Assembly: GCF_044704955.1 (NCBI RefSeq)
Contig: NW_027252702.1
Span: 620,001-684,000, forward strand
DNA length: 64,000 nucleotides
Direction of reading: 5' to 3'
Source: Pristiophorus japonicus
Lineage: Eukaryota
The notes beneath the pieces were generated by a model. The model saw only the letters and a program-made list of their open reading frames with translations, was not told the origin of the DNA and ran no database searches. The translations under genes and the position numbers were made by a program. Below, in pieces: positions 1,921 through 64,000 of the stretch. Positions within the stretch are counted from its first letter, which is position 1. Each line of letters opens with the position of its first letter.

Positions 1921-3254
1921 CTGCAGGGGTTGGAATCTGCTGTCAACGTTGCTGTTAATCAACTTCAAAACAGAACATATTCACTCTGACAACTGAGATT
2001 GTGTCTAATGAGGTTAATAAATCTTTTACTGGGATGGAGTTTAATATTCTGGCGTGGTTTCGTTTTTTTAAGGAACATACTTTCAATTCTGTAAAATACC
2101 AAGAATGCTTTGAAAGTAATTGAAAAATACATGTAATTCTTATAGCTGCACATTGCGTTTGTATTAATCTGAGAAAGAGCAGACATAAACATGATGCATT
2201 CTGTAGTACCTCCTATTTGCAGCAGATAGCGATGTCCCACTGATTAACTCCGACTGAGATGATTGCGATTGTCGCCTAGAACAGGGTGTGTGAGGGCAAC
2301 TCAAGGCCAAACTCTGAACATACCGCACCCACCGGGGCATCACCTCCTGGCCCCTCCCTGGGGCAGCTCAGTGCCAAAATCTGAACACACTGCACACACC
2401 GGGACATCACCCCCTGGCCCCTCCCTGGTGAACTTAGGGCCAAATTCTGAACATACTGCACCAACTTGCCCCTCCTTCGGGCAGCTCAAGGCCAATCTCA
2501 GAACATGCTGCACCAACTCGCCCCACCCTGGGGCAGCTCAGGGCCAAACTCTGAACATACTGCACCCACCGGGACATCACCCCCGGCCCCTCCCTGGGCA
2601 GGTCAGGGCCAAACTCTGAAAATCCATTTCCCACAGGGACATCGCCCACTGGCCCCTCAGTGGGGCAGCTCAAGTCCAAACTCTGAAGAAACTGCACATA
2701 CAGGGACATCACTCACTGTGAACTCCCTGGATCACAATAAGATCAGTAATTAAACATACTGCTCTGCACCCGGAAATCACACACTGACCCCTCCCTGTGG
2801 CAGCTCAGGGTCAGACACAGAACATACTGCACCACAGAGGGATATCGCACACTGCCCCCTCCCTGGGGCAGCTCAGGATCAGATACTGCACACCACAGAG
2901 ACATCACACACTGCCCCCTCCCTGGAGAAGCTCTGGTTGAGACACTGCACACCACAGGGATATCAAACACTGCCCCCTTCCTGGAGAAGCTCTGGTCCAG
3001 ACACTGCACCCCACAGGGACATCACACACTGTCCCCTCCCTGGGGCAGCTCAAGGTCAGTAACTGCGCCCCACAGGGACATCACGCACTGTCCCCTCACT
3101 GGGGCAGCTCAGTGTCAGACACTGCACCCGACAGGGACATAACATACTACCCCCGTCCTGGGGCAGCTCAGGGTCAGACACTGATATTACTGTACTCCAC
3201 AGAGACATCACACACTGCTCCCTCTCTGGGGCAGCTTAGGGTCGAACACTGAGC

Positions 3255-4575
3255 ATTGGGAAAGCAGTGATAAGATTGGTCCAAGTCAGCATGGATTTAT
3301 GAAAGAGAGATCATGCGTGACAAATCGTTTGGAATTGTTTGACGATGTAACTAGTAGAGTGGACAAAGGAGGACCAGTGGTTGTTGTGTATTTGGATTTT
3401 CAAAAGGCTGTTGATAAGGTCCCACACATGAGATTGTTGTGCAAAAATTAAAGCACATGGTATCGGAGTTAATATGCTGACGTGGATAGAGAACTGGTTG
3501 GCAGACAGGAAGCAGAGATAAACGGATCCTTTTCAGAATGGCAGGCAGTGACTAGTGGAGTGACACAACGTTCAGTGCTAGGACCGCAGCTCTTTACAAT
3601 ATACATTAATGATTCAGATGAAGGAATTGAGTGTAATATTTCCAAGTTTGCAGGTGACACTAAACTGGGGGCGGTGTGAGCTGTGAGGATGATGCTAAAA
3701 GGCTGCAGGGCGACTTGGATAAATTAGGTGATTGAGCAAATGCAAGACAGGTGCAGTATAATGTGGATAAATGTGAGGTTATCCACTTTAGGGGCAAAAA
3801 CACGAAGGCAGAATAATATTTGAATGTCGGCAGATTAGGAAAGGGGGAGATGCATTGCGACCTGGGTGTCATGGTTCATCAGTTATTGAAAGTTGCCATG
3901 CAGGTACAGCAGGCGGCGAAGAAGGCAAATGGTATGTTAACCTTCATAGCGAGGGGATTTGAGTATCGGAGCAGGGAGGTCTTACTGCAGTTGTACAGGG
4001 CCTTGGTGAGGCCTCACCTGGAATATTATGTTCAGTTTTGATCTCCTAGTCTGAGGAAGGACATTCTTGCTATTGAGGGAGTGCAGCGAAGGTTCACCAG
4101 ACTGATTCCCGGGATGGCAGGACTGACATCTGAGGAGAGACTGGATCAAATGGGCCTTCATACACTGGAGTTTAGAAGGATGAGAGGGGATCTCGTCGAA
4201 ACTTATAAGATTCAGGCGGTACTGGACAGGTTAGATGTGGAAAGAATGTTACCGATGTTGGGGATGTCCAGAACCAGGGGACAGATTCCTGGGATAACGG
4301 GTAGGCCATTTAGGACTGAAATGAAGAGAAACCTCTTCATTCAGAAAGTTGTTTACCTGTGTAATTCCCTGTCGCAGAGATTTTTTGACGCCAGTTCATT
4401 GGATATATTCAAGAGGGAGTTAGATATGACCCTTACGCTAAAGGGATCAATGGGTATGGAAGGAAAGCAGGAAACTGGTAATGAGGGAATGATCAACCAT
4501 GATCTTATTGAAAGGTGGTGCAGTCTCGACAGGTCGAATGGCCTACTCCTAAACCTATTTTCTATGTTTCTATAT
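3255..4575 (+). mobile_element. 5'-truncated CR1 LINE (RT to 3' end), degenerate
   Basis: RT motifs SQHGF...[14 protein letters not shown]...SKFAGDTKL, the ORF2 C-terminus, and a ttttctatgtttctat tail. Contains frameshifts and stops. Confidence 0.9.
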
Positions 4576-5072
4576 TTATATACTGCACCCTGCAGTGACA
4601 TGATACACTGCCCCCACCCTGGGGCAGTTCAGGGTCAGATACAGTACCCCACAGGGACTTTACACACTGCTCCCTCCCTGGGGGAGCTCAGGGCCAAACA
4701 CTGAACATACTGCACCGCACAGGGCCATCACACACTGCCCCCTCCCTGGCGCAGCTCAGGGGCAGACACAGAACAAACTGCACCCTACAGGGACATCACA
4801 CACAGCCCCCTCCCTGTGGCAGCTCAGGGTCTGAAACTGAACATACTGCACCTCATAGGGACATCACACACTGCCCCCTCCCAGTGCCAGATCAGAATGA
4901 TACACTGAACATAGTGTACCTCATCGGGACATCACGCCCTGTTCCCTCCATCGGGCAGCTCAGGGTCAGACACTGAACAAACTGCACCCCACAAGAACGT
5001 CACACACTACCTGCTCCTTGGGGCAGCTCAGGGTCAGACACTGCATCCCACAGGGATGTCGCACACTACCCC

Positions 5073-5314
5073 TGCCGTGTATTCAACTGTCATTGTTACC
5101 GTGTATAATCTGAAAAGTTGTACAGGTTGAGAACATTGACTACAAGGGGCGAACTTGTGGGAGACACTCCTAACTTGGACATTCAGTATAAAAGGGGAAG
5201 CTCCACATTTCTTCATCACTTGAGGTCTTGTTAATAATGGTAACTGGTCACGGAGTGAACTTCACTCAAGTGTGGGGCTCGTGTGCATTTATACTCTATA
5301 GTAAGAACATATCA
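5073..5314 (+). mobile_element. Probable solo LTR inserted in the minisatellite
   Basis: 242-bp non-satellite insert with TG...CA ends and an internal TATAAAA. Flanks acccc/atccc form a 4/5 match to a 5-bp TSD. Confidence 0.55.
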
Positions 5315-5747
5315 ATCCCTACCGTGTGGCAGCTCAGGGTCAGATACTGACCATGCTGCACCCCAGAGGGTCATCACACATTGCATCCTCCCTGGGACAG
5401 CTCAGGTTCAGGCACTGCACCCCAAACGGATATCAGACACTGCCCCCTCCATGGGGCAGTTCAGCGTCAGACACTGTCCCCTCCCTGCGACAGCTCAGGG
5501 TCAGACACTGAACATACTGCACCCCACAGGAACATCCCACACTGACCCCTCCCTGGGGCAGCTCAGGGTCTAACACAGAAACCAACAGGGACATCACACA
5601 CTGCCCCTTCCTAACGCTAAACCCCACAGGGTCATCACACACTGCTCCCTCCCTGGGGCAGCTCAGGGTCAGACACTGAACGTACTGCACCCCACAGGGA
5701 CAAAACACACTGCCACCTCCCTGGGGCAGCTAAAAGTCAGACACTGA

Positions 5748-6750
5748 GCATTTGGAAAGCAGTGATAAGATCGGTCCAAGTCAGCATGTATCTATGCAGG
5801 GAATCATGCTTGACAAATCGTCTGGAATTTTTTGAGGATGTAACTGGTAGAGTGAACAAGGGAGAAACAGTGGATGTGGTGTATTTTGATTTAGAAAATA
5901 CTTTTGATTAGATCACACACAAGAGGTTGGTGTGCAAAATCAAAGCGCAAGATATTGGGGGTAATTTACTCATGTTGATAGAGAACTGGTTGGCAGACAG
6001 GAAGCAGAGAGTCGGGATAAACGGGTCCTTTTCAGAATGGGAGGCAGTGACTAGTGGAGTGCCGGAGGGTTCAGTGCTTGGAACCCAGCTCTTTACAATA
6101 TGCATCAGTGATTTGGATGAAGGAATTGAGTGTAATATCTCCATGGTTGCAGATGACACTAAACTAGCTGGAGGTGTTAGCTGTGAGGGGGATGCTAGGA
6201 GGCTACACGGTGACTTGGACAGGTTATGTGAGTGGGCAAATACATCGCAGATGCAGTATATTGTGGATACATGTGAGGTTATCCTCACATGATTCTCATA
6301 TGAGGAGAGATTGGATCAACTGGGCCTTTATACACTGGAGTTTAGAAGGATGAGAGGAATCTCATAGAAACGTATACGATTCTGACGGGACTGGACAGGT
6401 TAGCTGCGGGTAGAATGTTCCCGATGTTGGGGAAGTCCAGAACCATGGACACAGTCTTAGGAGAAAGTGTAGGCCATTTCGGACTGAGATGAGGAGAAAG
6501 TTCTTCGCTCAGAGAGTTGTTAACCTGTGGAATTCGCTGCCGCAGAGAGTTGTTGCTGCCAGTTCATTGGATATATCCGAGAGGGAGTTCGATATGGCAC
6601 TTACGGCAAAGGGGATCAAGGGATATCGATAGAAAGCAGGAAATGGATACCGAGGGAATGATCAGCCATGATCTTATTGAGTGGTGGTGCTGGCTCGAAG
6701 GGCCGAATGGCCTAATCCAGCAGCTATTTTCTATGTTTCTATGTTTCTAT
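5748..6750 (+). mobile_element. 5'-truncated CR1 LINE with internal deletion
   Basis: Same start point as the 3255 copy. The sequence jumps at about 6290 from gaggttatcc to the EERLDQLG region. CR1 tail at about 6730-6750. Confidence 0.9.
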
Positions 6751-7559
6751 GAACATCAAACACTGCCCCCTCCTTGGGGCAGCTCAGGTCTGAAACTGAA
6801 CATACTGCACCCCACAGGGACATCACATACTGCCCCCTCACTGGGGCAGCTCAGGGTCAGACACTGAACATACTGTGCCCCACAGGGACATCACACACCG
6901 GCCACTCCCTGGGGAAGCTCAGGGTCAGACACTGAACATACTGTGCCCCACAGGGACATCACACACTGCCCCCTCCCTGAGGCAGCTCAGGGTCAGACAC
7001 TGCACGCCACAGGGACATCACACACTGCCCCCTCCTTGGGGCAGCTCAGGGTTAGACACTGAACATACTGCACGCCACACGGGCATCACACACTGCCCCA
7101 TCGCTGGGGCAGCTCAGGGTCAGACACTGAACATACTGCACCCCTCAGGGACATCACACAATGCCCCCTCCATGGGGCAGCTCACGGTCAGCCACTGCAA
7201 TCCACTGGAACATCACACACTGCCCGCTCCCTGGGGCAGCTCAGCCTCAGACACTGAGCATACCGCAACTGACAGGGTGATCACAAACTGCATCCACCTG
7301 TAAGAATACGGACTTTGGAGAGTATTTTGAGGCCTTAGATATTGCGAGTGTAAAATGGATCTCAGACTTTGCAATAAAAGCATGCTTCTGCAAAGATAAA
7401 CACACTGCTTTGGATTCCCTGCTGACACAAAATTCTGGTCTGTCACCAGTGACTGTGGTGTTAAAATCACATTTATTATAACTGGAAAACACACGTATTA
7501 TCACTGGTAATCATATCAGGGAACTCAGATGTTGTCTTCGTTTGCCAGATGAGGGTCCC

Positions 7560-9220
7560 ACTGAAAAAACTCTTCCTCACCAGCCCCTTCTCCCATTTAA
7601 AAAACACTCACTTTCCGGCCCTTCTTCCACTGAAAAAACCCTCCCTCACCAGCCCCTTCCCCACTGAAAAACTCCTCCCTCACCATCCCCTTCCCCACTG
7701 AAAAACTCCTCCCTCACCAGCCCCTTCCCCACTGAAAAAACCCTCCCTCACCAGCTCCTTCCCCCACTGAAAAAACCCTCCCTCTCCAGCCCCTTCCCCA
7801 CTGAAAAAACCCTCCCTCACCAGCTCCTTCCCCACTGAAAAACTCCTCCCTCACCAGCCCCTTCCCCACTGAAAAACTCCTCCCTCACCAGCCCCTTCCC
7901 CACTGAAAAAACCCTCCCTCACCAGCTCCTTCCCCCACTGAAAAAACCCTCCCTCTCCAGCCCCTTCCCCACTGAAAAAACCCTCCCTCACCAGCTCCTT
8001 CCCCACTGAAAAAACCCTCCCTCACCAGCCCCTTCCCCACTGAAAAAACCCTCCCTCACCAGCTCCTTCCCCCACTGAAAAAACCCTACCTCACCAGCCC
8101 CTTCACCCATTGAAAAACTCCTCCCTCACCAGCCCCTTCCCCACTGAAAAACTCCTCCCTCACCAGCCCCTTCCCCACTGAAAAACCCTCCCTCACCAGC
8201 CCCTTCCCCACTGAAAAAACCCTCCCTCACCAGCTCCTTCGCCCACTGAAAAAACCCTCCCTCACCAGCCCCTTCCCCTCTGAAAAACCCTCCCTCACCA
8301 GCCCCTTCCCCACTGAAAAACCCTCCCTCACCAGCCCCTTCCCCACTGAAAAACCCTCCCTCACCAGCCCCTTCCCCACTGAAAAAACCCTCCCTCACCA
8401 GCTCCTTCCCCCACTGAAAAAACCCTCCCTCACCAGCCCCTTCCCCACTGAAAAACCCTCCCTCACCAGCCCCTTCCCCACTGAAAAACCCTCCCTCACC
8501 AGCCCCTTCCCCACTGAAAAAACCCTCCCTCACCAGCCGCTTCCCCACTGAAAAAACCCTCCCTCACCAGCCCCTTCCCCACTGAAAAACCCCTTCCTCA
8601 CCAGCCCCTTCCCCACTGAAAAACCCTCCCTCACCAGCCCCTTCCCCACTGAAAAAACCCTCCCTCACCAGCCCCTTCCCCACTGAAAAACCCTCCCTCA
8701 CCAGCCCCTTCCCCACTGAAAAAACCCTCCCTCACCAGCTCCTTCCCCCACTGAAAAAACCCTCCCTCACCAGCCCCTTCCCCACTGAAAAACCCTCCCT
8801 CACCAGCCCCTTCCCCACTGAAAAACCCTCCCTCACCAGCCCCTTCCCCACTGAAAAAACCCTCCCTCACCAGCTCCTTCCCCCACTGAAAAAACCCTCC
8901 CTCACCAGCCCCTTCCCCACTGAAAAACCCCTTCCTCACCAGCCCCTTCCCCACTGAAAAAACTCTTCCTCACCAGCCCTTTCTTCCACTGAAAAACTCC
9001 TCCCTCACCAGCCCCTTCCCCACTGAAAAAACCCTCCCTCACCAGCCCTTTCTTCCACTGAAAAACTCCTCCCTCACCAGCCCCTTCCCCACTGAAAAAA
9101 CCCTCCCTCACCAGCTCCTTCCCCCACTGAAAAAATCCTCCCTCACCAGCCCCTTCCCCACTGAAAAAACCCTCCCTCACCAGCTCCTTCCCCACTGAAA
9201 AAACCCTCCCTCACCAGCCT
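7560..9220. repeat. Minisatellite, about 30-32-bp unit (CCACTGAAAAAACCCTCCCTCACCAGCCCCTTCC)
   Basis: About 50 near-identical tandem units. The + strand is almost G-free and the - strand is rich in G-runs. Confidence 0.97.
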
Positions 9221-52300: not shown

Positions 52301-52693
52301 TGCTGCCTGCCATTTGAATGCCTTTCATTGCTCAGTTCCTGATTTACCTGTCAGTCTTTCATTCCAGTCCACCTGGACCAGATCCTATTAAAATCACTGG
52401 AATTAACCATCAACAAGTTGAATATTTTCTCCCTTGAATGTTCCGTGTCCATTTCCATAACTACTTTAATCCTAATAATATTGGTATCTCTGTTTCCTAA
52501 ATGCATTTTGTCTGAATAATACTGCATTCGCCCTATTCCTTTCGCCAGTAGCAGATTCCGCATTGCTTCCATCCTTGTTGGGCTGGAATCAACCTTACCA
52601 AGAAAATTCTCCTCGACATATTTCAGGAAATACTCCCTTTACAATGTTACTGTCCCAGTCTCTATTAGCAATGTTTAAGTCCCCTATTATCAC
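49400..52693 (-). mobile_element. Old CR1 (continues after the ERV at 62309 to about 63750), with a younger CR1 3' fragment nested at about 51300-52310
   Basis: Degenerate ORF2 pieces (50611..51024 VTPFSKRG; 51393..51641; 51915..52328). Endonuclease-region sequence is interrupted at the ERV TSD and resumes beyond it, with ORF1-like pieces at 62774..63013. Confidence 0.75.
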
Positions 52694-53235
52694 TGTCGAG
52701 GAAATTTCTAAGTTAAAGTAACTCAAGCGGAGATTTCAGAGTCTTGCTTCAAGAGATTCTTTAATATGTACAGGCGAGATATCTCGGAGAGCTGCTTGGT
52801 CCTTACCAAGGCAATACTCTGAAATTCTATAGAAACTTGTTCCATCTTTATACAGAAAAAAAGGAATTTTATCTCTACAATTGACACCTACATTATTCAG
52901 GAACATTACCAATTCTAAACAGGGCACAAAGGTCAGTTTACACAGCCCAACAGTATCTTGTCACGTCATTATTCAATCTTTTCGAGGGTCAGCAAGATCA
53001 TCACTAAAAGCCCCTCTTATCAGAGAAATCAGTTTGTCCAGGCAATGGGGGTATCTTAACATATACAAATACCAGATGTACAGCTTTCATGTTATCTGTT
53101 CTTTTCTAACAAAGAAGAGACATCAAGTATTTTCTGGCCTTGCAGGATTCTGCAGTCTCAGCACAGAATTAAACTTACTAAAAGGAAAAGAGAAATTTAA
53201 CCCCTTCCTATATCGTGAACTAAAGTTCTTCCACA
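52694..53235 (-). repeat. ERV 3' LTR (542 bp)
   Basis: Matches 61762-62303 with no mismatch seen by eye. ATTAAA poly(A) signal on - at 52760-52765. Preceded by the PPT AAGGAGGGAG at about 53237-53246. Confidence 0.98.
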
Positions 53236-53285
53236 ACTCCCTCCTTGTTGATCTTTTATCTTTAATGATCAACATGCTTTCCTTC

Positions 53286-55334
53286 TTAGAAAGAAAAGGG
53301 AGGCTCATACCCCTCGGGGTAAGGTCTCATCTCTAAACATTCTTTTTCATTATAGTCATCTAACTGTCCCTCTATTCTGTTTAACCTTCCTTTCACGATC
53401 ACATTTTTCTGCTCTATTTTTTCTACTAGGTTCATTACTTGTCCTAACAGGGATCTTACTTTCAGCCCCATTCCACAGACAATTAGCAGCAGAATCAGCA
53501 AAATTACACCAAGTACTACTATCGGGTGTATTGCCAGTTTTAATACCGCTGTTGCCCTGGGGGACCAGCCTAGGAATATATCCCACCAGTGATGCGCTGT
53601 TATAGAGGTAACTGTGTTTGCTATTCGTACTAATTGTCCCTTTTTAAAACTCATTTCTATCTCAAATTGGTGAATATCTCTGCCCCGCTTGGACAATGCC
53701 TTTTCTATTTCTTTGTCATTTTGTATTAGATTATGCAGTCGGGTTAAATTAATTGTAGGTGGTAATGGTTCAATTCTGTGCACCGTTAAATACTTCTCCA
53801 CATTTTTCCACTGTCCAAAAGTATAAGTTCTTTTTTCTTCTGGGTTATATAGAGTGTAAACTCCTTTCACACAAATATTAATAGGAGGTATATATAAAAT
53901 CCCGTCTAAGTAGACGGGTTTATTTCCTGTTAGGCAAACTTCGTTTTGGCCTATCTCTGAGACCTCTGTGTCATTAGCTTGTTTTAGTTCCCACTTGCAT
54001 ATTCCTGTCGAGTGCTGTAAAGAACATGGTTCGTGGATGGCGGTTCGGTAAGGACAAACCATCCCGAATGGCCATTTAACACATCCCCTGTCATGATGTG
54101 TTAGATTCCTTTCATCGACCCAGTCCCCTTTAAATTTTGGATACCAAAAGTTCTGTCCGAATAATTGGGGTATTACTTGATACTGACACCAAATTTCCTT
54201 CTTAGTCATACTTATTATTTCCATTGTGATATTACATCCGTCTATATCACAGCTAGTGTATTTTTCTTGAGGTTTGAGGGCAAGATCTGGAAACTTATTG
54301 ATTCCAAGTAATCTTTCCCAGGTCTCAGCGTGGAAAGATAGTATTTTCCTTTCTAACTCGGCTCTCAATAACTGTCTGATAGTCTCCTTAAACATGCAGC
54401 TGGTGTACCAATTTACCCCTTTCTGTTCCTTCATCAGGTTTTCGATTTCCTTTTCTATTTCTTTACTTTGCCTCCACGTCATTTTGTCTGTTATGTAGCC
54501 AGATACCTGTAGTTGCTGTAGCCCTTCATCCCACGCGTTTCTCAACTCTATACTTTCTCCTATTAGTCCTCCTACAACCTGGATTTTGTTTTGCAGGGTC
54601 TCTATATCTATTGTGTTCAAGGCTCCCATTCCTACTCCTACCCCACCTAATACAGTTCCCAGCACGTCTCGCTTTTTTCTCAAGGATCGGTCCAGTGTGA
54701 CTCCAACACTGGTCGTGTTGCAACCATCCCTCTCCCTTAGCGGATATAGGATTTGTATGGTTAAATTTACTATACCTGGGGATCTTACTACCGATATGCA
54801 GGTGGTCAATATTCGTTTTAAATGGCCCGGATCTCTGGGGGAATGCCTATTTTTATTATGTGTCCACTGTTTAATATAGGTTCCCCCATGTAGTATTTTT
54901 GTACGGTTCATGCACTTTACCCATCCTCTGTTTTCTATTTTAAAATGACAATCTTCTTCGGGGTCACAAAACGTGCCATTAGTTTCTTGGCTCTCAGCTA
55001 TTTCCTTGTTGGTCAGGCATGTCATATGTACCTTCCATTTCAAGGTTATGTTAAATCCTTCCTCACTGGTTATTTTCACTTCCCCTGATCTTGGGTCCAC
55101 CCCTATTCCGCAGGCCTCTCACCTTACTGTGAAGTTCCCCACTTTGCAATCCTCTTTTTCCGAACATACATAAGTGTCCTGCTGTCCTGCTTTGTCAATC
55201 GTGCCCCAGGCCATTTCTCCTTTCCATATTTTACCTTCTTTTATAAACCTTTCTTCTGTTTTAACTCTTCCCACTGCCAGAAGGATTAACATACCCAATG
55301 TCCCCTGATAGTTTTGCCAGGAGTCCTTCCTCAT
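53286..55334 (-). pseudogene. env: ERV env, interrupted by a single in-frame TGA at 55119-55121
   Basis: ORF 55119..55334 (signal peptide) is in frame with ORF 53286..55100. Furin site RKKR|DVLGTVLGGVGVGMGALN (fusion peptide), membrane anchor LAIHPIVVLGVILLILLLIVCGMGL, and several N-glycosylation sequons. Confidence 0.9.
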
Positions 55335-55556: not shown

Positions 55557-58500
55557 CTAGCTCGGTATTTCTTCTTCTTGCTGTGTTTCGTCTGGAAGGT
55601 AGTATTTACATCGGGTGGCGTGTATCCAATTTGGATGTTTTTCCAGTTTCAGGGCGGTTCTTGTTGTGAGGATTATCTGATATGGTCCCTTCCACCTAGG
55701 AGAAAAAGATTCCTTGTTTAGAGTTTTCACTAATACTTGCTCTCCCGGCCTGAAAGGGTGCATGTTTCCCTCTGACGGAGGTACTTGGGTCTGTTTTATT
55801 CGCTCATGCAGGCTTCTCGCTATTTCACACATGGCCTGAGCATATTTTAGCGACTTTTCGTCATTCCAAATTAATGCTACCTTTTCTGCTCCTAGTGGCG
55901 GTTTCACACCAGTAGGCATTGGCCTTCCTAATAAGGCTTCATGGGGTGTCAAACCAGTATTTCGGTTCTTTTGGTTTCTTATGGTATATAGTACCAATGG
56001 AAGGGCATCTGGCCATTTTAGTCCTATTTCTTGACATACTTTAGTAAGGGTGGACTTTATCACTCCATTGACTCTTTCCACCATGCCTGAGGACTGAGGT
56101 TGATACGGTATGTGCAATTTCCACTGGAAACCTAGCGCTTCGGCTAGATTCTGCACTATTTTTCCTGTAAAATGTGTTCCTCTGTCACTGTTGATTCCCA
56201 TAGGTATCCCATATCTTGGCACTATTTCTTTAAATAGGATCTTCACTACTGTTCGGGCATCATCCTTCCTTGTTGCATATGCCTCTACCCACCTTGTAAA
56301 CATATCTACTATTACTAATAGATACTTAAAGCCTAATACTGGAGGCATGTGGACAAAATCAATTTGCAAATTTTCAAAGGGCATGCTTGGTTGGGGTAGA
56401 TGGTCATATTCTGCAGGCGTCTTTCCTCTATTGTTTTGTTGGCAAATTTGGCAGGTTTTAGCAATTTTCTCAATTATTACTGTTATTCCTGGTGCATACC
56501 ATTGCGCATTGATAGCATGTATCATCCCTCCTTTGCCCATGTGAGCCTGACCATGAGCTAGGCGAGACAAGGGCAAAAACAAAGACCTGGGACATACAGT
56601 TCGTCCGTCAGGATGGGTCCAGATATTATTTTTTAAAAAACATCCTTGTTTCTCCCATGTTTTTCTTTCCTGCACTGTAACTTGTTGCTGTGCTATTTCA
56701 AGTTGTTGGGCGCTCAGTGTTGGCAGAGGGGAGACTGAGGCTGCCTGTAGGCAGCACGTCTGTTCCAAAGCGGCTCGTCGGGCCGCCTCGTCGGCCCTCC
56801 TATTTCCTATTGATACTTCATCTTCACCAGTTGTGTGGGCTGCGCATTTAATAACAGCAACCCTTTTTGGCAATTGAATGGCATCTATCAGGTTAAGCAC
56901 TAATTGTGAGTGCTTAATATGCTTCCCGCCAGAGGTGATGAAGCCTCTGTTTTTCCATAGTTGTCCAAAATCATGGACTACACCAAATGCATATCTTGAA
57001 TCGGTATATATATTAGCAGATTGATTTTTAGCTAATATACATGCTCTCGTTAGGGCGAACAATTCAGCTGCCTGTGCCGAGGTTCCGGGGGGCAAGGCAA
57101 ATGCCTCAACAATTTCATATGGGTTCACAATAGCATAGCCTGCCAGGAGCAAATTGTCTGATGGTCTGTGAGACGACCCATCTGTATAAAGAATGAGATC
57201 GGGATTGTCCATTGGTTCCGTAAGCAAATCTGGTCTAGGCATGGTAGCCATCTCCACTGTTGACAGACAGTCGTGCTGGTCTGGGTCCTCTATTTCTCTA
57301 GTGGAGCTGGTAGGAACAAAAACAGCAGGGTTTACTGCAGGCGCACGGCGAAAAGTGTAGTTAGGGTGTGACAACAGCAGCACCTCGTAGCCTGTCCTTC
57401 GGGATGCTGTGAAATGCTGAGTTGCTGCGGAATTCAACAATAACAGCACCGCATGCGCGGTGATAACAGTGCACGGATAGTCCAATACAATTGGTACTGA
57501 TTTTTCCACCATGACCGCAGTAGCGGCTACAGCACGCAGACAAGCAGGCATTCCTCGTACTACTGGGGGGAGCATTACCGAATAATAAGCAACTGGTCTA
57601 TTTCCCCCACCATGTTCTTGGGTTAACACTGCTGTTGCGAATCCTTCTTTTTCATTCACATACATTTGAAAAGGTTTCGAATAGTTCGGAAGTCCCAATG
57701 CTGGAGCGTTAGTAATAGCATTTTTTAACTGTTTAATTGCTTCTTCCCTCTCAGGGGTCCATTCCACTTTAGGTGGGGCTTCTTTTAGGGTAGTTGATTG
57801 TAGAGTCGCATCCCATTCCCGATAGTAGGGGATCCATTGTCTACAGTATCCCACCATCCCTAGAAAAGATAAAACATCCTTCTTTGTCCTTGGTGTGGGG
57901 GTGTTTTGGATGGTTTGAATTCTTTCAGGTCCCAGCTGCCTCTGCCCCTGGGATATACGAAACCCTAGGTACTGCACTTGGACTTGGCAGAATTGTAACT
58001 TTTGCAGTGAAACCCGATGCCCTCTTTCACATAGGTGCTGTAAAAGCTTTATAGAGTCTTGCATACATTCAAACCCGTGGCTGGAGGCCACGAGCAGATC
58101 GTCAGCGTATTGTAATAGCACCGACTGATCTGATAATGAGCAGTCCTCGAGGTCTCTTTTTACGGCTGCCGCATAAACTGCGGGGCTTTCGGTATACCCC
58201 TGGGGCAGCCTAGTCCACGTATACTGTTGTTTCTTATACGTGAAGGCAAACAAATATTGACTTTCCTCCTTTAAAGGGATGGAGAAGAATGCCGAACACA
58301 GATCTACTACAGTAAAGACAGTAGCTGTGGGTGGGATAGCGGATAGTATGATGTTGGTGTCCGGTACCACAGGGGTGATAGGGACTACTATCTTATTTAT
58401 AGCTCTTAGATCTTGTACAAATCTCCACTCATTTGGTCTATTAATCTTCGGGATAGGCAGTATCGGCGTATTACACGGGCTCTGTGTCTTTTTCAGGACG

Positions 58501-59705
58501 CCTTGCTCTAACAGTGCTAAGATGACTGGCTCTATCCCTTCTTCCGCCTCCGGTGGCAGTCTGTACTGCCTTATACTTGGCAATACAGCATTTTTTATCA
58601 ACTGTACCCTATGGGGCACCGCAGAATAGACTTGTCCAACATGGTTTTTATGTTTAGCCCAGAGTTCGGGGGACACTTGACTCAGTGCCATTGGTATGTT
58701 AGGGCTAGTTTGTCCGGGGGGTTGCTGTTTTTCAAACGTAGCATCGTGCCCTTTTCTCTCCCAGTGGAGAATTCCTCTGTCACGGGTGATAAATTCTAGC
58801 CGTATATCCTGCAGTTCTATCATCGCCCATGGTTGATAACCTGGTCGCTGTCTTTTCTCTTCTATGTCTAAGATCATCCCGCCCATGTCTTTAGGTTTTG
58901 CTGGGGGCTTTACAGCCAATGTCAGATGGGGTGTCGTATTTTCTTCTTTAAATCGTTTTTGTTGTAACGGTGTTAGCTCCACGGCCACCCCCAACCCTTC
59001 AGATCCGAAATAAATGTGGGGAGTAGCTTCTATTACTTCGTTTTTATTTAAGAACGGTTGCACAAAGCGCTGATAGTCTTCAGCCCTGTGTCGAGTATAC
59101 CAGGCTGTACAGTGAAGCTGAACTGCCTCAAAGCTTGTTAAGATGATATACAATAACTCTTTAATATTAGGGTCAATTTTAATCTTTAAGTTTTCCACTG
59201 CCTCTTTTATCAGGGGGGAGTAGAAGTTGCCACTCAGTTGCCAACTATAAAGGGCAGCACTTTCTTCATTCTTTTCCTCTTTCTCTCTTTCTATCCCATT
59301 AAAGAACTGATGAATGTTATTTGGAGGGATCTCCATAAACATCCCTTCCTTTGTGCAATATATTGTGGCTCCTAGTTTGCACAAAGTCTGTCTTCCTAAT
59401 AGAGGGAGAGGCGTTGTCTTAGAGACTATCAGGGTTTCGTCATTAACTTGTTGTCCTTCAATTGTCAATTTAGTAGGTTCGGATAAAAAATCTTTCAAGG
59501 GGACGCCGGCCACACCCATGCTTAAAACAGTGGTGTTGCTTACGGGTAATCCCACAGAGGGCGGTACAGAGGACATAGTGGCGCCGGTATCCACCAGGAA
59601 CTTTACATAAGTGTTTCCTACTTTTAGTATTGCTAAGGGATTTTCTTCTATGTCCGTTGATAAGCGAAGAGTCGCTGCCTGTACCGTTATGCCTCTGGGG
59701 CATCC
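55557..59705 (-). CDS. pol: ERV pro-pol: protease, 2H-phosphoesterase-like domain, RT, RNase H, integrase
   Basis: FLVDTGA and LLGR (protease); LHCT and PHLTL; LPQGYTESP and QYADDLL (RT); YTDGS, AQAAEL, YTDSRY (RNase H); HHCC, D-D-E and GPY (integrase). The frame is open from the gag stop onwards. Confidence 0.98.
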   Translation of the reverse strand, partial: GCPRGITVQAATLRLSTDIEENPLAILKVGNTYVKFLVDTGATMSSVPPSVGLPVSNTTVLSMGVAGVPLKDFLSEPTKLTIEGQQVNDETLIVSKTTPLPLLGRQTLCKLGATIYCTKEGMFMEIPPNNIHQFFNGIEREKEEKNEESAALYSWQLSGNFYSPLIKEAVENLKIKIDPNIKELLYIILTSFEAVQLHCTAWYTRHRAEDYQRFVQPFLNKNEVIEATPHIYFGSEGLGVAVELTPLQQKRFKEENTTPHLTLAVKPPAKPKDMGGMILDIEEKRQRPGYQPWAMIELQDIRLEFITRDRGILHWERKGHDATFEKQQPPGQTSPNIPMALSQVSPELWAKHKNHVGQVYSAVPHRVQLIKNAVLPSIRQYRLPPEAEEGIEPVILALLEQGVLKKTQSPCNTPILPIPKINRPNEWRFVQDLRAINKIVVPITPVVPDTNIILSAIPPTATVFTVVDLCSAFFSIPLKEESQYLFAFTYKKQQYTWTRLPQGYTESPAVYAAAVKRDLEDCSLSDQSVLLQYADDLLVASSHGFECMQDSIKLLQHLCERGHRVSLQKLQFCQVQVQYLGFRISQGQRQLGPERIQTIQNTPTPRTKKDVLSFLGMVGYCRQWIPYYREWDATLQSTTLKEAPPKVEWTPEREEAIKQLKNAITNAPALGLPNYSKPFQMYVNEKEGFATAVLTQEHGGGNRPVAYYSVMLPPVVRGMPACLRAVAATAVMVEKSVPIVLDYPCTVITAHAVLLLLNSAATQHFTASRRTGYEVLLLSHPNYTFRRAPAVNPAVFVPTSSTREIEDPDQHDCLSTVEMATMPRPDLLTEPMDNPDLILYTDGSSHRPSDNLLLAGYAIVNPYEIVEAFALPPGTSAQAAELFALTRACILAKNQSANIYTDSRYAFGVVHDFGQLWKNRGFITSGGKHIKHSQLVLNLIDAIQLPKRVAVIKCAAHTTGEDEVSIGNRRADEAARRAALEQTCCLQAASVSPLPTLSAQQLEIAQQQVTVQERKTWEKQGCFLKNNIWTHPDGRTVCPRSLFLPLSRLAHGQAHMGKGGMIHAINAQWYAPGITVIIEKIAKTCQICQQNNRGKTPAEYDHLPQPSMPFENLQIDFVHMPPVLGFKYLLVIVDMFTRWVEAYATRKDDARTVVKILFKEIVPRYGIPMGINSDRGTHFTGKIVQNLAEALGFQWKLHIPYQPQSSGMVERVNGVIKSTLTKVCQEIGLKWPDALPLVLYTIRNQKNRNTGLTPHEALLGRPMPTGVKPPLGAEKVALIWNDEKSLKYAQAMCEIARSLHERIKQTQVPPSEGNMHPFRPGEQVLVKTLNKESFSPRWKGPYQIILTTRTALKLEKHPNWIHATRCKYYLPDETQQEEEIPS

Positions 59706-61409
59706 CTATGCTGATTGATACGGATTGGGGTTAGAAAAGGAAAATTGAGGGGCTGGTGGAGGTGGAGGTTCGGAAAAGTTCCCTTGCGACCCTCTATTCT
59801 GTTTGGGCGGGCATCTACAGTCGCGAGCCCAATGCCCTATTCTTCCACAATTTCTACACTCATCTTGAGAGCGATCTCGCTGTGACCACTGTCCTCTTCC
59901 TCTTCCTCTACCCCTAAATCCCCCTCGATTCTGCGCCTGCCCTCCGCCTCTCTGCTGGTAATATTGACCTGTTGCTTTGGTTTTACTTACGTAATTGAAC
60001 AATCCCTCCCTGTCCATGTTTGCCAAGACAGTGACTGTCTCTTTCCAGGTTTTTCCTTGCCAATCTAAAACTTTAATTTTGTAGGTCTTTGCATGCTGTG
60101 GTAACATGCAGTTCAGCAGTGTTTGTACTGCTAAAGGTTCATTCGTATCTAAGGGTATTCCTGCATACTCCTCCCAGCTATTTTTCCACCTGGCTGCGAA
60201 ATCTATCATTGATTCTTCCGCTTTCTGCAAACAGCGAGTAACCTCCCCTATATCCCCATGTTGTCTAGCCCCTTGTAGAATTGCATTCCGTCCTCTATTC
60301 TGTAGCCAGTGTGTTAAAGATTCGTTTCCTTCATTTAGCAAATCATTATTAGCTCTCCAATCCCCTTCTTCTCCGGGCGGGATATGGAACATATCTTTTA
60401 CTCCCTGCCAGGAAGATCCGTACGCTGCTTGTAATAATAGTTTAACATCCCCTGGTAGCGCATTATAAATTGTACAGGTCTGCTCAAGCCAGTTATGAAA
60501 TGCAACAGGTTTCTTTACCGGGTTTGGGGCTGCAGAGATCATGTCTCTGGCCTCTCCCGGAGACCAGGGTTTTAAAACCGCTGTGGTTCCTATCATTACT
60601 CGGGGATTTTGGAGGAGGAGGGTAGAGTCGGCTTCTGCCTGAGCTGGGGTTGTTTGTGACCTTAGGACCATACCAGCTCTCAGATTGGCTCCCCCTCCCT
60701 CTGCTGCTTCAGCCTCTGCTGCTTCAGCCCCTGCTCCTAATACCCCCGGGTTTCCTTCATCAGCTCCTCCATTAGGTAGTGGGGCCGGGAAGACAGCTAG
60801 TTCTCCCTGGGCTTGATCTCTATGGGCAATAACCATTTCTAAAATTTCCTGCCAGCTATTTCGCTTTGGGGGTTCTATGCGAGGATAGAGTCCCACGGTT
60901 GGTGCTGAGGGGATAGGGAGGTTTGGAGGGCTATAAGAGGGAGGTTTTTCAGTTTCCCCCTTTTCTTTCTCTCCTGATTTATTCTCTGATATTTTTACTT
61001 TCGGAGGCTGATGTCTTTTTGCAACCTCTAGCCATTTAATAAAACATTCATCCATATAATCTTTGTCCCAAGTAGGGTCTCCTCCCCCTTCCTTAGTTAT
61101 TTTCCTCCATTCTTCGATTAAAGACAATTTAAAACTTCCTCCATATGGCCAGTCCCCATCAGACCAACCATATAAATCGCTACTAAATGTTACCGCGTAT
61201 CGGTCATCTCCTGTTTCTTTAATTACAGTGTCCGCCGGCGAGCCGGGTGGCACAATTGGATCTCCTACCTTCTCTCGTTGCTTTACTACCTTACGAATCC
61301 TTTTTTCAGTTTTACGCTGCATACTCATTCTTTTAGTTGGAGGGTCGGTTTTCTTCCCTTTTCTAGGAACTGGACGCAAGCATCCTGCTCGACTAGAGCT
61401 GTTTCCCAT
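59706..61409 (-). CDS. gag: ERV gag
   Basis: Myristoylation-type start MGNSSS (ATG at 61409), WPYGGSF matrix motif, late-domain motifs PPSY, PSAP and LYP, an MHR-like QKAEESMIDFAAR, and a single CCHC knuckle CRNCGRIGHWARDC. Ends in TAG. Confidence 0.96.
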   Translation of the reverse strand: MGNSSSRAGCLRPVPRKGKKTDPPTKRMSMQRKTEKRIRKVVKQREKVGDPIVPPGSPADTVIKETGDDRYAVTFSSDLYGWSDGDWPYGGSFKLSLIEEWRKITKEGGGDPTWDKDYMDECFIKWLEVAKRHQPPKVKISENKSGEKEKGETEKPPSYSPPNLPIPSAPTVGLYPRIEPPKRNSWQEILEMVIAHRDQAQGELAVFPAPLPNGGADEGNPGVLGAGAEAAEAEAAEGGGANLRAGMVLRSQTTPAQAEADSTLLLQNPRVMIGTTAVLKPWSPGEARDMISAAPNPVKKPVAFHNWLEQTCTIYNALPGDVKLLLQAAYGSSWQGVKDMFHIPPGEEGDWRANNDLLNEGNESLTHWLQNRGRNAILQGARQHGDIGEVTRCLQKAEESMIDFAARWKNSWEEYAGIPLDTNEPLAVQTLLNCMLPQHAKTYKIKVLDWQGKTWKETVTVLANMDREGLFNYVSKTKATGQYYQQRGGGQAQNRGGFRGRGRGRGQWSQRDRSQDECRNCGRIGHWARDCRCPPKQNRGSQGNFSEPPPPPAPQFSFSNPNPYQSA

Positions 61410-61738: not shown

Positions 61739-61756
61739 GTCCTGCAGACTTCGCCA
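61739..61756 (-). other. Primer-binding site, tRNA-Ser-like
   Basis: TGGCGAAGTCTGCAGGAC lies 5 nt after the 5' LTR. It matches 15/18 to the complement of the vertebrate tRNA-Ser 3' end as I recall it (TGGCGTAGTCGGCAGGAT). Confidence 0.75.
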
Positions 61757-61761
61757 GAAAC

Positions 61762-62303
61762 TGTCGAGGAAATTTCTAAGTTAAAGTAACTCAAGCGGAG
61801 ATTTCAGAGTCTTGCTTCAAGAGATTCTTTAATATGTACAGGCGAGATATCTCGGAGAGCTGCTTGGTCCTTACCAAGGCAATACTCTGAAATTCTATAG
61901 AAACTTGTTCCATCTTTATACAGAAAAAAAGGAATTTTATCTCTACAATTGACACCTACATTATTCAGGAACATTACCAATTCTAAACAGGGCACAAAGG
62001 TCAGTTTACACAGCCCAACAGTATCTTGTCACGTCATTATTCAATCTTTTCGAGGGTCAGCAAGATCATCACTAAAAGCCCCTCTTATCAGAGAAATCAG
62101 TTTGTCCAGGCAATGGGGGTATCTTAACATATACAAATACCAGATGTACAGCTTTCATGTTATCTGTTCTTTTCTAACAAAGAAGAGACATCAAGTATTT
62201 TCTGGCCTTGCAGGATTCTGCAGTCTCAGCACAGAATTAAACTTACTAAAAGGAAAAGAGAAATTTAACCCCTTCCTATATCGTGAACTAAAGTTCTTCC
62301 ACA
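61762..62303 (-). repeat. ERV 5' LTR (542 bp) with TATA box
   Basis: Direct repeat of 52694-53235. TATAAA on - at 61915-61920. Confidence 0.98.
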
Positions 62304-64000
62304 ATCACTACTCTAAAATATTGCGTGACAACACGCTCCTCTATTTCATTCCCACTATTTGGTGGCCTGTATTTAACACACGCCAGGAAAAAAGCTTCTG
62401 TATTGTTCCATAATTCTAATCAAACAATTCTGTCTTTGAACCTTCAAGTACGCCATCCAGTTCAAATGCTGTAACAGTATCTTTGATCAATATTTCCACA
62501 CATCCATCGTTTTTCCTTCCGTATCTTTTGCTAATGTATAGCGCAGAACAACATAAAGGGGCCATTCCTTGCCTTGTTTGAGCCATGTCTCCGTTATTGA
62601 CAATATACTGTAGCATAATCCTGTGTTGCAACTTGTGCCTGCAGCTCTCCACTCTTATTTACCAGCTTACTGGAAATTACACACATGCACTCCAAAATCA
62701 CTTTACACTGATTCGCATTTCCCCAATCTGAACCCTCCTACTTCTAAAGTACTCTTTCTTTCAATTGTGTTTACTAATCGCGTCCTTCATGCCCCTTATA
62801 TCTTCTCCCCAGTCCTCCATCCTGGAGCACCACACCTGCCATATTAGTGTAAACCTCCCCCACAGCACTAGTAACCATCACTGTGACATCATTGATCCCG
62901 GCCCAATTGGACGCGCAGCCCTTCCATATTTTGCTCGTCGTTCCTCCACAGAACTGGTCCCAATGCTCCAGGAATATGAAACCCTCTCCCTTGCACAATT
63001 TCTCCAGCCGCACGTTAAACTTGTTTTATCTTGCTGCTGCTATAGTCACTAGCCCGTGGCACTGGGAGTAATCTAGAGATTATCAGCATTGAGGTCCTGC
63101 TCTTTAACGTCCTCCCTCGCTCCTGAAACTATGGCTGTAGGACCTTTGCCCTTTTTCTAGCTACGTTGTCAGTCACGACTTCTGGCTGTCCGCCTTCCCC
63201 TTGCGAAATGTTTGCGCCCTTTCAGTGATATCCTTTATCCTTGCAGAATTGAGCAAATCCACCTTGGGAGAATCACGTCGGTGGTTGCAGAACCGACTGC
63301 CGCACCCCCTGACTAAGAATCCCCTATGACTAGTGCATTTCTACATTTTGATGTGTCTCCCTGTGCTTCATTTGCCATGCCCCTTTGTACTACACTTCGC
63401 TGTGCCTCTCTTTGTTCATTTGCCCCACATTACTGTGCTTCTGCCCGAGACTGCATGCTGCGCAGCACTGAAAAGCGGTTTGAGTGTGTCACCATCCCGG
63501 AGGATCCTACTCTACAGGACACTTCCTAACTTGTGGGTTGGCCATCCACTTAAAAATCCCTGCAGTCTCTGTAGCTGTCGGGTGGCCACCTCCTGGAATT
63601 TGCAGGAAACTATCAGCCTTCTGTATTCCCTGCACTGACACAGAAACACTGAGCTTGATGTTACGCAACTGGAGGCGATTCATGCACATGGGTTTATACA
63701 GGACACATGTAGCGTTAAGACATATGTTGTTATAGATCGATATCATTTCAAATTATCCAGTTAGATAAAATTATTTACTCTGATTAATTACTGCTGCTCC
63801 ATGTTTTAAAATACCTTGTCCTCACTCTGCACCGAATTCCCACTTTCAGCAAATTACCCCTTTACCCTGATTAGAATGATATCCCATTTAAGAGAATCAG
63901 CCTACTCCCACTCAGTCCTGTGCCTTAGCAAATATATTCCTCAAATGCATATATATTAGAAAGACACTAGTTACAACTAGCCAGTTAGCAGCCAGGCACA

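What the first reader, a model, noticed from the sequence alone, without database searches (positions are those of the whole stretch)
58710..59261. 2H-phosphoesterase (CNPase-like) domain embedded between protease and RT
Seen: about 185 extra residues between the protease end and the RT start carry two HxT motifs, VQLHCTAW (His at 59112-59114) and TPHLTLAV (His at 58926-58928), 62 aa apart. Known: paired Hx(T/S) motifs define the 2H phosphoesterase fold. Such a domain has been reported in some fish retroviral polyproteins, and coronavirus NS2 and rotavirus VP3 2H enzymes degrade 2-5A to block RNase L. Inference: an intact, virion-packaged enzyme that may destroy innate-immune nucleotide messengers (2-5A, cyclic dinucleotides) or repair 2',3'-cyclic-phosphate RNA/tRNA-primer ends. 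Its function in retroviruses is not established to my knowledge.
Basis: partly seen in the sequence, partly recalled or inferred. Interest (0 to 1): 0.75.

Follow-up and report, generated by a model that had tools for sequence, protein, structure and literature searches.

The report
CNPase-like enzyme domain in fish retrovirus
A very young endogenous retrovirus carries, between its protease and reverse transcriptase, a conserved domain predicted to fold like the host enzyme CNPase, which likely opens cyclic-phosphate RNA ends rather than destroying the immune messenger 2-5A; such domains were already noted in fish retroviruses, and I found no test of their function.

Summary
Observation confirmed. 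The pol frame of a young provirus (identical 545-bp LTRs) has a protease-RT spacer of 307 aa against 111-134 in insert-less relatives, with HCT and HLT motifs 62 aa apart. The model (pLDDT 88) matches the CNPase catalytic domain (Z 16-17) and then fungal Trl1 (11.6); 2-5A and cGAMP nucleases score only about 5-7. CNPase's base-stacking aromatic and helix alpha-7 glycine are kept. The domain is under purifying selection (dN/dS about 0.17). It is intact in 45 of 88 scorable Pol relatives from teleosts, hagfish and skate, and it matches walleye retrovirus polyproteins. Reviews already cite 2H/CNPase domains in fish retroviruses, and this scan noted the same thing five times on other DNA. It is most likely an accessory 2',3'-cyclic phosphodiesterase, packaged with Gag-Pol. 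Added here: in the window's own RT clade the domain runs from intact to histidine-less but still conserved, to remnant, to deleted. So catalysis looks dispensable for replication. Known kind, untested function.

The parts
58728..59261 (-). CNPase-clade 2H phosphodiesterase domain, pol residues 149-326
   Evidence: AF2 model pLDDT 87.8, pTM 0.82; aligns over 173-176 of 178 residues to mouse/human CNPase 164-376, Z up to 17.1, rmsd 2.7-2.9
59106..59114 (-). First catalytic motif H-C-T (His198)
   Evidence: His in 49 of 58 aligned inserts
59097..59099 (-). Tyr203, five residues after His198; inferred equivalent of CNPase Phe235 (base stacking)
   Evidence: aromatic in 39 of 46 intact inserts; role of Phe235 from PMC4643303 passages
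58920..58928 (-). Second catalytic motif H-L-T (His260)
   Evidence: His in 51 of 58
58851..58889 (-). Helix after the second motif (model residues 125-137, with Gly275); inferred equivalent of CNPase helix alpha-7 / Gly324
   Evidence: Gly at His+15 in 45 of 46 intact inserts; helix described as CNPase-specific in PMC4643303
59361..59648 (-). Retroviral aspartic protease (DTG)
   Evidence: Pfam RVP E 4e-8
55557..59705 (-). pol ORF (PR-2H-RT-RNase H-IN), 1382 aa, in frame behind the gag amber stop; read-through inferred
59706..61409 (-). gag ORF (starts MGNSS, one zinc knuckle)
53286..55118 (-). env-like ORF, 610 aa stop to stop (RKKR, hydrophobic stretches); no significant Pfam family
61760..62304 (-). 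5' LTR (545-bp identical block, which includes a few flanking bases)
   Evidence: 100% identical to the 3' LTR; TG...CA ends; 5-bp target-site duplication ATCAC read from the flanks
52692..53236 (-). 3' LTR, preceded by a polypurine tract
61741..61757 (-). Primer binding site, complementary to a tRNA-Ser 3' end

Best explanation
The insert is a conserved two-histidine domain, predicted to be a CNPase-type 2',3'-cyclic-nucleotide 3'-phosphodiesterase, that epsilon-like fish retroviruses likely took from a host gene long ago and likely use as an accessory enzyme to open cyclic-phosphate ends on RNA or nucleotides. Shown: position, motifs, purifying selection, wide spread and repeated loss. Predicted: the CNPase fold, with the base-stacking aromatic and helix alpha-7. 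Inferred: it is made by read-through of the gag stop, packaged with Gag-Pol, and then released by the protease or left on RT. His260 would activate water and His198 would protonate the leaving 3'-O, giving 2'-phosphate/3'-OH ends as in CNPase. Most speculative: it removes the cyclic-phosphate marks that host metal-independent RNases leave on RNA fragments and that innate sensors read, which helps infection in some hosts without being needed for reverse transcription.
For: Fold: all 41 listed Foldseek PDB rows are CNPase or RICH (best E 5.9e-9). In the independent wide search CNPase scores Z 16.4 and the next 2H enzyme 6.7. Fungal Trl1 kinase-CPD is second at Z 11.6. Sequence alone agrees: a 17-sequence profile hits 23 CNPase/RICH sequences among 24 PDB matches (best E 5e-4) and no other 2H enzyme. 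CNPase determinants kept: aromatic at His+5 in 39 of 46 and Gly at His+15 in 45 of 46 (roles from PMC4643303 passages). Selection: dN/dS 0.16-0.20 against 12 copies of the 70%-identical subfamily. Old capture: the host CNP gene is present but only about 20% identical. Accessory: 43 of 88 scorable relatives have a degenerate or absent domain, with a full gradient inside the window's own 22-row clade (support 99). Cyclic-phosphate RNA ends as innate signals (RIG-I/MDA5, NLRP3, TLR8): PMC8406329 passage.
Against: No activity has been measured, and a shared fold shows no substrate. CNPase Arg307 is not kept (Thr here, mostly Ala/Val in the family) and Val321 is Lys/Arg in 34 of 46, so substrate preference may differ. 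The host has an OAS gene cluster, so a 2-5A target may exist. One histidine-less pair is as conserved as intact pairs, which points to a non-catalytic role. Gag-Pol delivers few copies per virion, a poor way to clear a bulk cellular signal (own knowledge). Some single-histidine losses may be decay after insertion.
Confidence: 0.55

Rival explanations
1. The enzyme has CNPase chemistry but serves the replication cycle itself: inside the virion it heals cyclic-phosphate ends on the tRNA primer or on nicked genomic RNA, so that RT gets a 3'-OH.
For: It sits directly in front of RT and would be packaged one-to-one with it. The two closest folds, CNPase and Trl1 CPD, are RNA-end healing enzymes or their homologues (PMC5434554 Background). 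It is kept at the same place across distant hosts.
Against: The domain is absent or degenerate in 43 of 88 scorable relatives, including near ones with long open frames. It evolves faster than RT (dN/dS 0.16-0.20 against 0.02-0.04). The product carries a 2'-phosphate that may hinder extension (inference).
Confidence: 0.15
2. The fold matters more than catalysis: the domain is a binding module or decoy, for example competing with host CNP (which restricts lentiviral assembly by binding Gag), binding RNA ends, or spacing the protease from RT.
For: P0010 and P0012 have Phe at both histidine positions, yet their inserts are 66% identical against 77% for RT (distance ratio 1.62, within the 1.4-3.9 range of the comparison pairs). 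Host CNP binds Gag and blocks HIV assembly (as summarised in PMC5434554).
Against: Both histidines are kept in 45 of 57 relatives that have a long spacer. The histidine-less case rests on one pair of unnamed contigs. No interaction was tested.
Confidence: 0.14
3. One reading: a 2-5A or cyclic-dinucleotide nuclease that blocks RNase L or STING, like coronavirus NS2, rotavirus VP3 or poxvirus cGAMP PDE.
For: Same superfamily, and those enzymes do appear in the fold search (Z 5.4-6.7). The host genome has several OAS genes (16 exon matches, 15 in one cluster). 2H enzymes have changed substrate repeatedly (PMC9503650 section 21). The basic residue at the Val321 position could bind an extra phosphate (inference).
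Against: CNPase scores 10 Z units higher. 2-5A enzymes are LigT-group members that make cyclic phosphates rather than open them (PMC8406329 passages). Most intact copies come from teleosts, which I recall lack OAS; I could not confirm this. None of 17 tetrapod-labelled hits has an intact domain, although a newt protein found later does (P0109).
Confidence: 0.12
4. The insert is an inert passenger, or the motifs are chance.
For: No Pfam family and no single-sequence PDB hit. A word-seeded search with the insert alone found nothing.
Against: Confident CNPase-like model, purifying selection and motif conservation across hosts.
Confidence: 0.02

Closest known systems
[quoted passage not shown]
   Same: The top three viral-structure hits are WEHV-1 Q9WHI8, WDSV A4GTG3 and Q2VF30 (E 6e-9 to 6e-7; Q2VF30 is unnamed there and I recall it as salmon swim bladder sarcoma virus; I did not check where in the targets the match lies). 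PMC9503650 section 21 cites Mazumder 2002 for 2H in WDSV. PMC4977317 cites Basta 2009 for CNPase frames in fish ERVs (passage).
   Different: Only 12-15% identical to those viruses. The host is likely a cartilaginous fish (nearest named protein is from a sawshark, 92% identical over the RT part). The primer is tRNA-Ser, against tRNA-His in the walleye viruses. I could not read the two primary papers.
Vertebrate CNPase / fish RICH catalytic domain (PDB 2xmi, 1woj, 2i3e; Pfam PF05881)
   Same: Whole-domain structural match (Z 16-17), two HxT motifs, aromatic at His+5, helix and glycine after the second motif.
   Different: About 20% identity, below the Pfam family's reach. Motif spacing 62 against 79. 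No Arg307 or Val321. No N-terminal kinase-like domain. Embedded in Pol.
Fungal Trl1 cyclic phosphodiesterase (PDB 6u05)
   Same: Second-closest fold (Z 11.6, rmsd 3.7 over 149 residues); same reaction class.
   Different: 9% identity; no ligase or kinase partner in the provirus.
Viral 2',5'-phosphoesterases (MHV NS2, rotavirus VP3, AKAP7) and cyclic-dinucleotide 2H nucleases (Acb1, poxvirus cGAMP PDE)
   Same: 2H superfamily, virus-encoded.
   Different: Z only 5.4-7.0 over 107-130 residues; a different subgroup with different chemistry.

Membership tests
2H phosphoesterase superfamily | Two H-x-T/S-x motifs | tested here: met
   HCTA and HLTL, 62 aa apart; conserved across relatives
2H phosphoesterase superfamily | 2H fold with both motifs on strands of one cleft | tested here: met
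   Predicted model: motifs start strands 50-56 and 112-117; 20 of the 21 top rows are titled as 2H-type phosphoesterases or relatives. His-His distance not measured, coordinates not available
CNPase clade (CNPase/RICH/Trl1 CPD) | Closest structural and profile match | tested here: met
   Z 16.4 against 6.7 for the next; 23 of 24 profile hits in the PDB
CNPase clade (CNPase/RICH/Trl1 CPD) | beta5-alpha7 loop and helix alpha-7 after the second motif, described as absent in other 2H enzymes | tested here: met
   Helix 125-137 in the model; Gly at His+15 in 45 of 46; PMC4643303. Equivalence inferred from spacing and whole-domain superposition
CNPase clade (CNPase/RICH/Trl1 CPD) | Substrate-binding residues Phe235, Val321, Tyr168, Arg307 | tested here: inconclusive
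   Phe235 equivalent aromatic in 39 of 46; Val321 mostly Lys/Arg; Arg307 never Arg; Tyr168 register unsure
CNPase clade (CNPase/RICH/Trl1 CPD) | Hydrolysis of 2',3'-cyclic phosphate to 2'-phosphate | not testable with these tools
   Needs an enzyme assay
Vertebrate CNPase protein family (PF05881) | Score above the Pfam cut-off | tested here: not met
   No PF05881 hit at E<=1 for the window's insert or Pol, nor at E<=5 for 12 relatives; the own-genome search found only the host gene
Viral 2',5'-phosphoesterases (eukaryotic-viral LigT group) | Closer to AKAP7/NS2/VP3 than to other 2H groups | tested here: not met
   These are listed at Z 5.8-6.2, CNPase at 16.4
Viral 2',5'-phosphoesterases (eukaryotic-viral LigT group) | Cleaves 2-5A | not testable with these tools
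   Needs an enzyme assay
Epsilon-like (class I) fish retroviruses with a PR-RT 2H domain | LTR-gag-pol-env layout, gag-pol in one frame behind an amber stop, MLV-type integrase C-terminus | tested here: met
Epsilon-like (class I) fish retroviruses with a PR-RT 2H domain | RT groups with fish class I ERVs | tested here: met
   Nearest rows are teleost ERV Pol proteins, up to 63% identity (quick tree). No named epsilonretrovirus was in the tree, so genus membership itself was not tested

The most novel reading that the evidence does not exclude
Fish retroviruses package a captured CNPase into their virions to erase 2',3'-cyclic-phosphate danger signals or to counter the host's own antiviral CNP. 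This would be a retroviral immune-evasion enzyme of a new type, and some lineages would have turned it into a catalytically dead but conserved decoy.
Probability: 0.25. Interest if true: 0.7.

Novelty: new member of a known kind. Interest (0 to 1): 0.3.

Why it matters
The domain's existence is known, so the finding itself is not surprising. Its value is as a handle on an open question: a fourth enzyme in the Pol of a large retrovirus group, for which my ten literature searches found no functional test. The structure narrows the substrate to cyclic-phosphate ends. The natural series from intact to histidine-less to deleted gives ready comparisons. A positive assay would link retroviruses to cyclic-phosphate RNA signalling and give a clue to what host CNPase does outside myelin.

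Tried and rejected
Pfam, single-sequence PDB and word-seeded searches with the insert alone found nothing. The ESM Atlas gave no answer.

Idea: RT-deleted copies keep the 2H domain because it is useful. Rejected. 15 of 20 near-identical loci examined lack part of RT, but they also carry an upstream gag deletion (16 of 20 loci), which is 265 bp and out of frame in the 4 loci measured. The domain is therefore probably not made from them.

Idea: recent capture from this host's CNP. Rejected: about 20% identity, hhalign probability 57%.

Idea: absent from tetrapods. Rejected: a newt protein has both motifs.

RNase L in the host: the PF06479 search gave 3 exon matches at two loci, and the best exon of each locus is IRE1. 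RNase L was not found, but an exon-level search is insensitive, so this is inconclusive.

Loss of OAS in teleosts could not be confirmed from the papers held. Expression: no RNA holder listed. Other fusion contexts: 7 of 3937 longer candidates passed, all Pol-like, which is weak evidence. PMC10835031 (viral PDE capture) has no occurrence of retrovir, CNP or fish. Alignment A2 misplaced the first motif of the second family and was not used. One of the 8 hits (P0108) is a repeat-protein false positive.

Full report
Observation. The window holds a provirus on the minus strand. It has 545-bp LTR blocks that are 100% identical, a 5-bp target-site duplication, a primer binding site and a polypurine tract. 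It also has gag, a 1382-aa pol frame directly behind the gag TAG, and an env-like frame. Pfam finds protease (20-115), RT (418-584), RNase H and integrase, and nothing on the stretch between protease and RT. That stretch is 307 aa between two anchor motifs, against 111-134 aa in 30 of 31 short-spacer relatives. Such a pair arose in 0.52% of 20,000 shuffles.

Relatives. A search with the protease-to-RT part gave 103 Pol proteins. I dropped 1 with no sequence upstream of RT and 14 without a scorable protease anchor. Of the other 88, 45 have both motifs, 12 have a long spacer with one or both motifs lost, and 31 have a short spacer; two of these 31 keep one motif after an internal deletion. Named intact cases come from many teleosts, hagfish and skate, and a newt protein turned up in the unseeded search, which gave 8 hits, one of them false. 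In the window's own 5.9-Gb genome the insert has 1287 first-look candidates, of which 150 were scored, at 70-100% identity. More distant families with a shorter version gave 2456 candidates, 150 scored. The nearest named protein is from a sawshark, so the host is likely a cartilaginous fish.

Fold. With a 53-row alignment AlphaFold2 gave pLDDT 87.8 and pTM 0.82, with each histidine at the start of a strand. All 41 listed Foldseek PDB rows are CNPase or goldfish RICH. The independent search over 48,161 chains ranks mouse CNPase at Z 16.4 (rmsd 2.9, 175 residues). The other 2H enzymes follow at 6.7 or less, among them Acb1 6.7, rotavirus VP3 6.1-6.2, MHV NS2 6.1, AKAP18 5.8 and penguinpox cGAMP PDE 5.4. 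Fungal Trl1 kinase-CPD lies between, at Z 11.6. A profile of 17 viral domains finds CNPase/RICH by sequence alone (23 of 24 matches, best E 5e-4). In the viral library the only 3 hits below E 0.001 are WEHV-1, WDSV and Q2VF30 polyproteins.

Active site. PMC4643303 (passages) names His230/Thr232 and His309/Thr311 as the catalytic motifs, Phe235 and Val321 for base stacking, Tyr168 and Arg307 as helpers, and helix alpha-7 as specific to CNPase. By spacing from the histidines, the Phe235 position is aromatic in 39 of 46 intact inserts and the Gly324 position is Gly in 45 of 46; the model has a helix there. Against a simple copy of CNPase, the Val321 position is Lys or Arg in 34 of 46 and the Arg307 position is never Arg. 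I could not measure the His-His distance.

Evolution. I compared the window with 20 hand-picked divergent copies of the 150. Against the 12 from the 70% subfamily, dN/dS is 0.16-0.20 for the insert, 0.03-0.11 for protease and 0.02-0.04 for RT. Against the 8 closer copies it is 0.21-0.30 for the insert. These are simple pairwise counts, the copies are not independent, and RT dS is near saturation. The host CNP gene exists but is about 20% identical, so the capture is old. The RT tree is a quick tree of 89 rows; the careful search did not finish. In it the window's 22-row clade (support 99) contains intact inserts, inserts lacking one histidine, a pair lacking both, two kinds of remnant and eight relatives with no insert. 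The histidine-less pair is as conserved as intact pairs (one pair only). Catalysis is therefore selected in most lineages but looks dispensable for replication.

Mechanism. I commit to a CNPase-type 2',3'-cyclic phosphodiesterase, made by read-through as part of Gag-Pol, likely packaged, and acting as an accessory enzyme on cyclic-phosphate ends. My odds are about 0.95 for the fold, about 0.7 for the chemistry and about 0.4 for the immune-dampening role. Cyclic-phosphate RNA ends are reported to drive RIG-I/MDA5, NLRP3 and TLR8 signalling (PMC8406329 passage). The rivals are primer or RNA healing for RT (0.15), a non-catalytic decoy or binding role (0.14; host CNP binds HIV Gag, PMC5434554 Background), and 2-5A or cGAMP cleavage (0.12). 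For the last, the host does have an OAS cluster, and my RNase L search was inconclusive because both loci found are IRE1. My recollection that teleosts lack OAS was not confirmed by the papers held.

What is known. PMC9503650 (passages and section 21) states that 2H domains occur in a fish retrovirus and in walleye dermal sarcoma virus, citing Mazumder 2002. PMC4977317 (passages) states that epsilon-like ERVs of ray-finned fish can encode CNPase, citing Basta 2009. Neither primary paper is held, and I read no supplements, so details there may cover more than I credit. I saw passages of PMC3185748, PMC6307210 and PMC5434554, and a term search of PMC10835031 returned none. Ten searches listed no functional study of the retroviral domain; the library lacks most subscription papers. 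Five earlier notes of this scan describe the same domain in other genomes. I looked at them after forming my reading, and they do not count as support.

Verdict. Real, intact and correctly assigned to the 2H superfamily; more precisely a member of the CNPase clade, and a new member of a known kind. The function is untested and easy to test on the isolated domain. Interest 0.3.

Noticed in passing
L002-L020 against window 57667-58626 and 60690-60954: Non-autonomous derivatives dominate the youngest copies: 15 of 20 loci lack part of RT (net 827 bp in 9, 961 bp in 5, another deletion in 1) and 16 of 20 share a gag deletion. They seem to have spread in trans.
   Followed up: partly
P0010, P0012: Two Pol proteins with long open frames have Phe in place of both catalytic histidines, yet a conserved insert: a candidate viral pseudo-enzyme.
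   Followed up: partly
P0018, P0022, P0034, P0080: Long protease-RT spacers (216-267 aa) that no longer score against the domain profile: likely remnants.
   Followed up: partly
L049-L060: Further, distant ERV families in the same genome carry a shorter 2H domain with both motifs; 2456 first-look candidates, 150 scored.
   Followed up: partly
window 61741-61757; L068 124-202: The primer binding site differs at 2 positions from the common tRNA-Ser(AGA) 3' end but matches a minor tRNA-Ser-like variant that ARAGORN does not call.
   Followed up: partly
L021-L040: Synonymous distance to the window differs by region (against the 70% subfamily: protease about 0.4-0.5, insert 0.8-1.0, RT 0.9-1.6), and several copies are patchworks: recombination among subfamilies.
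   Followed up: no
window 53286-55118: The env-like frame has no Pfam family and no obvious signal peptide at its 5' end; about 440 bp lie between the pol stop and this frame.
   Followed up: no
G000 C8, 218.42-218.60 Mb (L043-L048): A tandem cluster of about five or six OAS genes in the host.
   Followed up: no
G000 C23, 20.35-20.45 Mb: A long tandem array of tRNA-Ser-like genes with a period of about 1.95 kb.
   Followed up: no
window 7567-8930 and 2294-7256: Minisatellite arrays with 33-35, 59 and 68 bp periods.
   Followed up: no
P0016: One cluster is labelled tilapia by one source and ferret by another; probably a mislabelled record.
   Followed up: no
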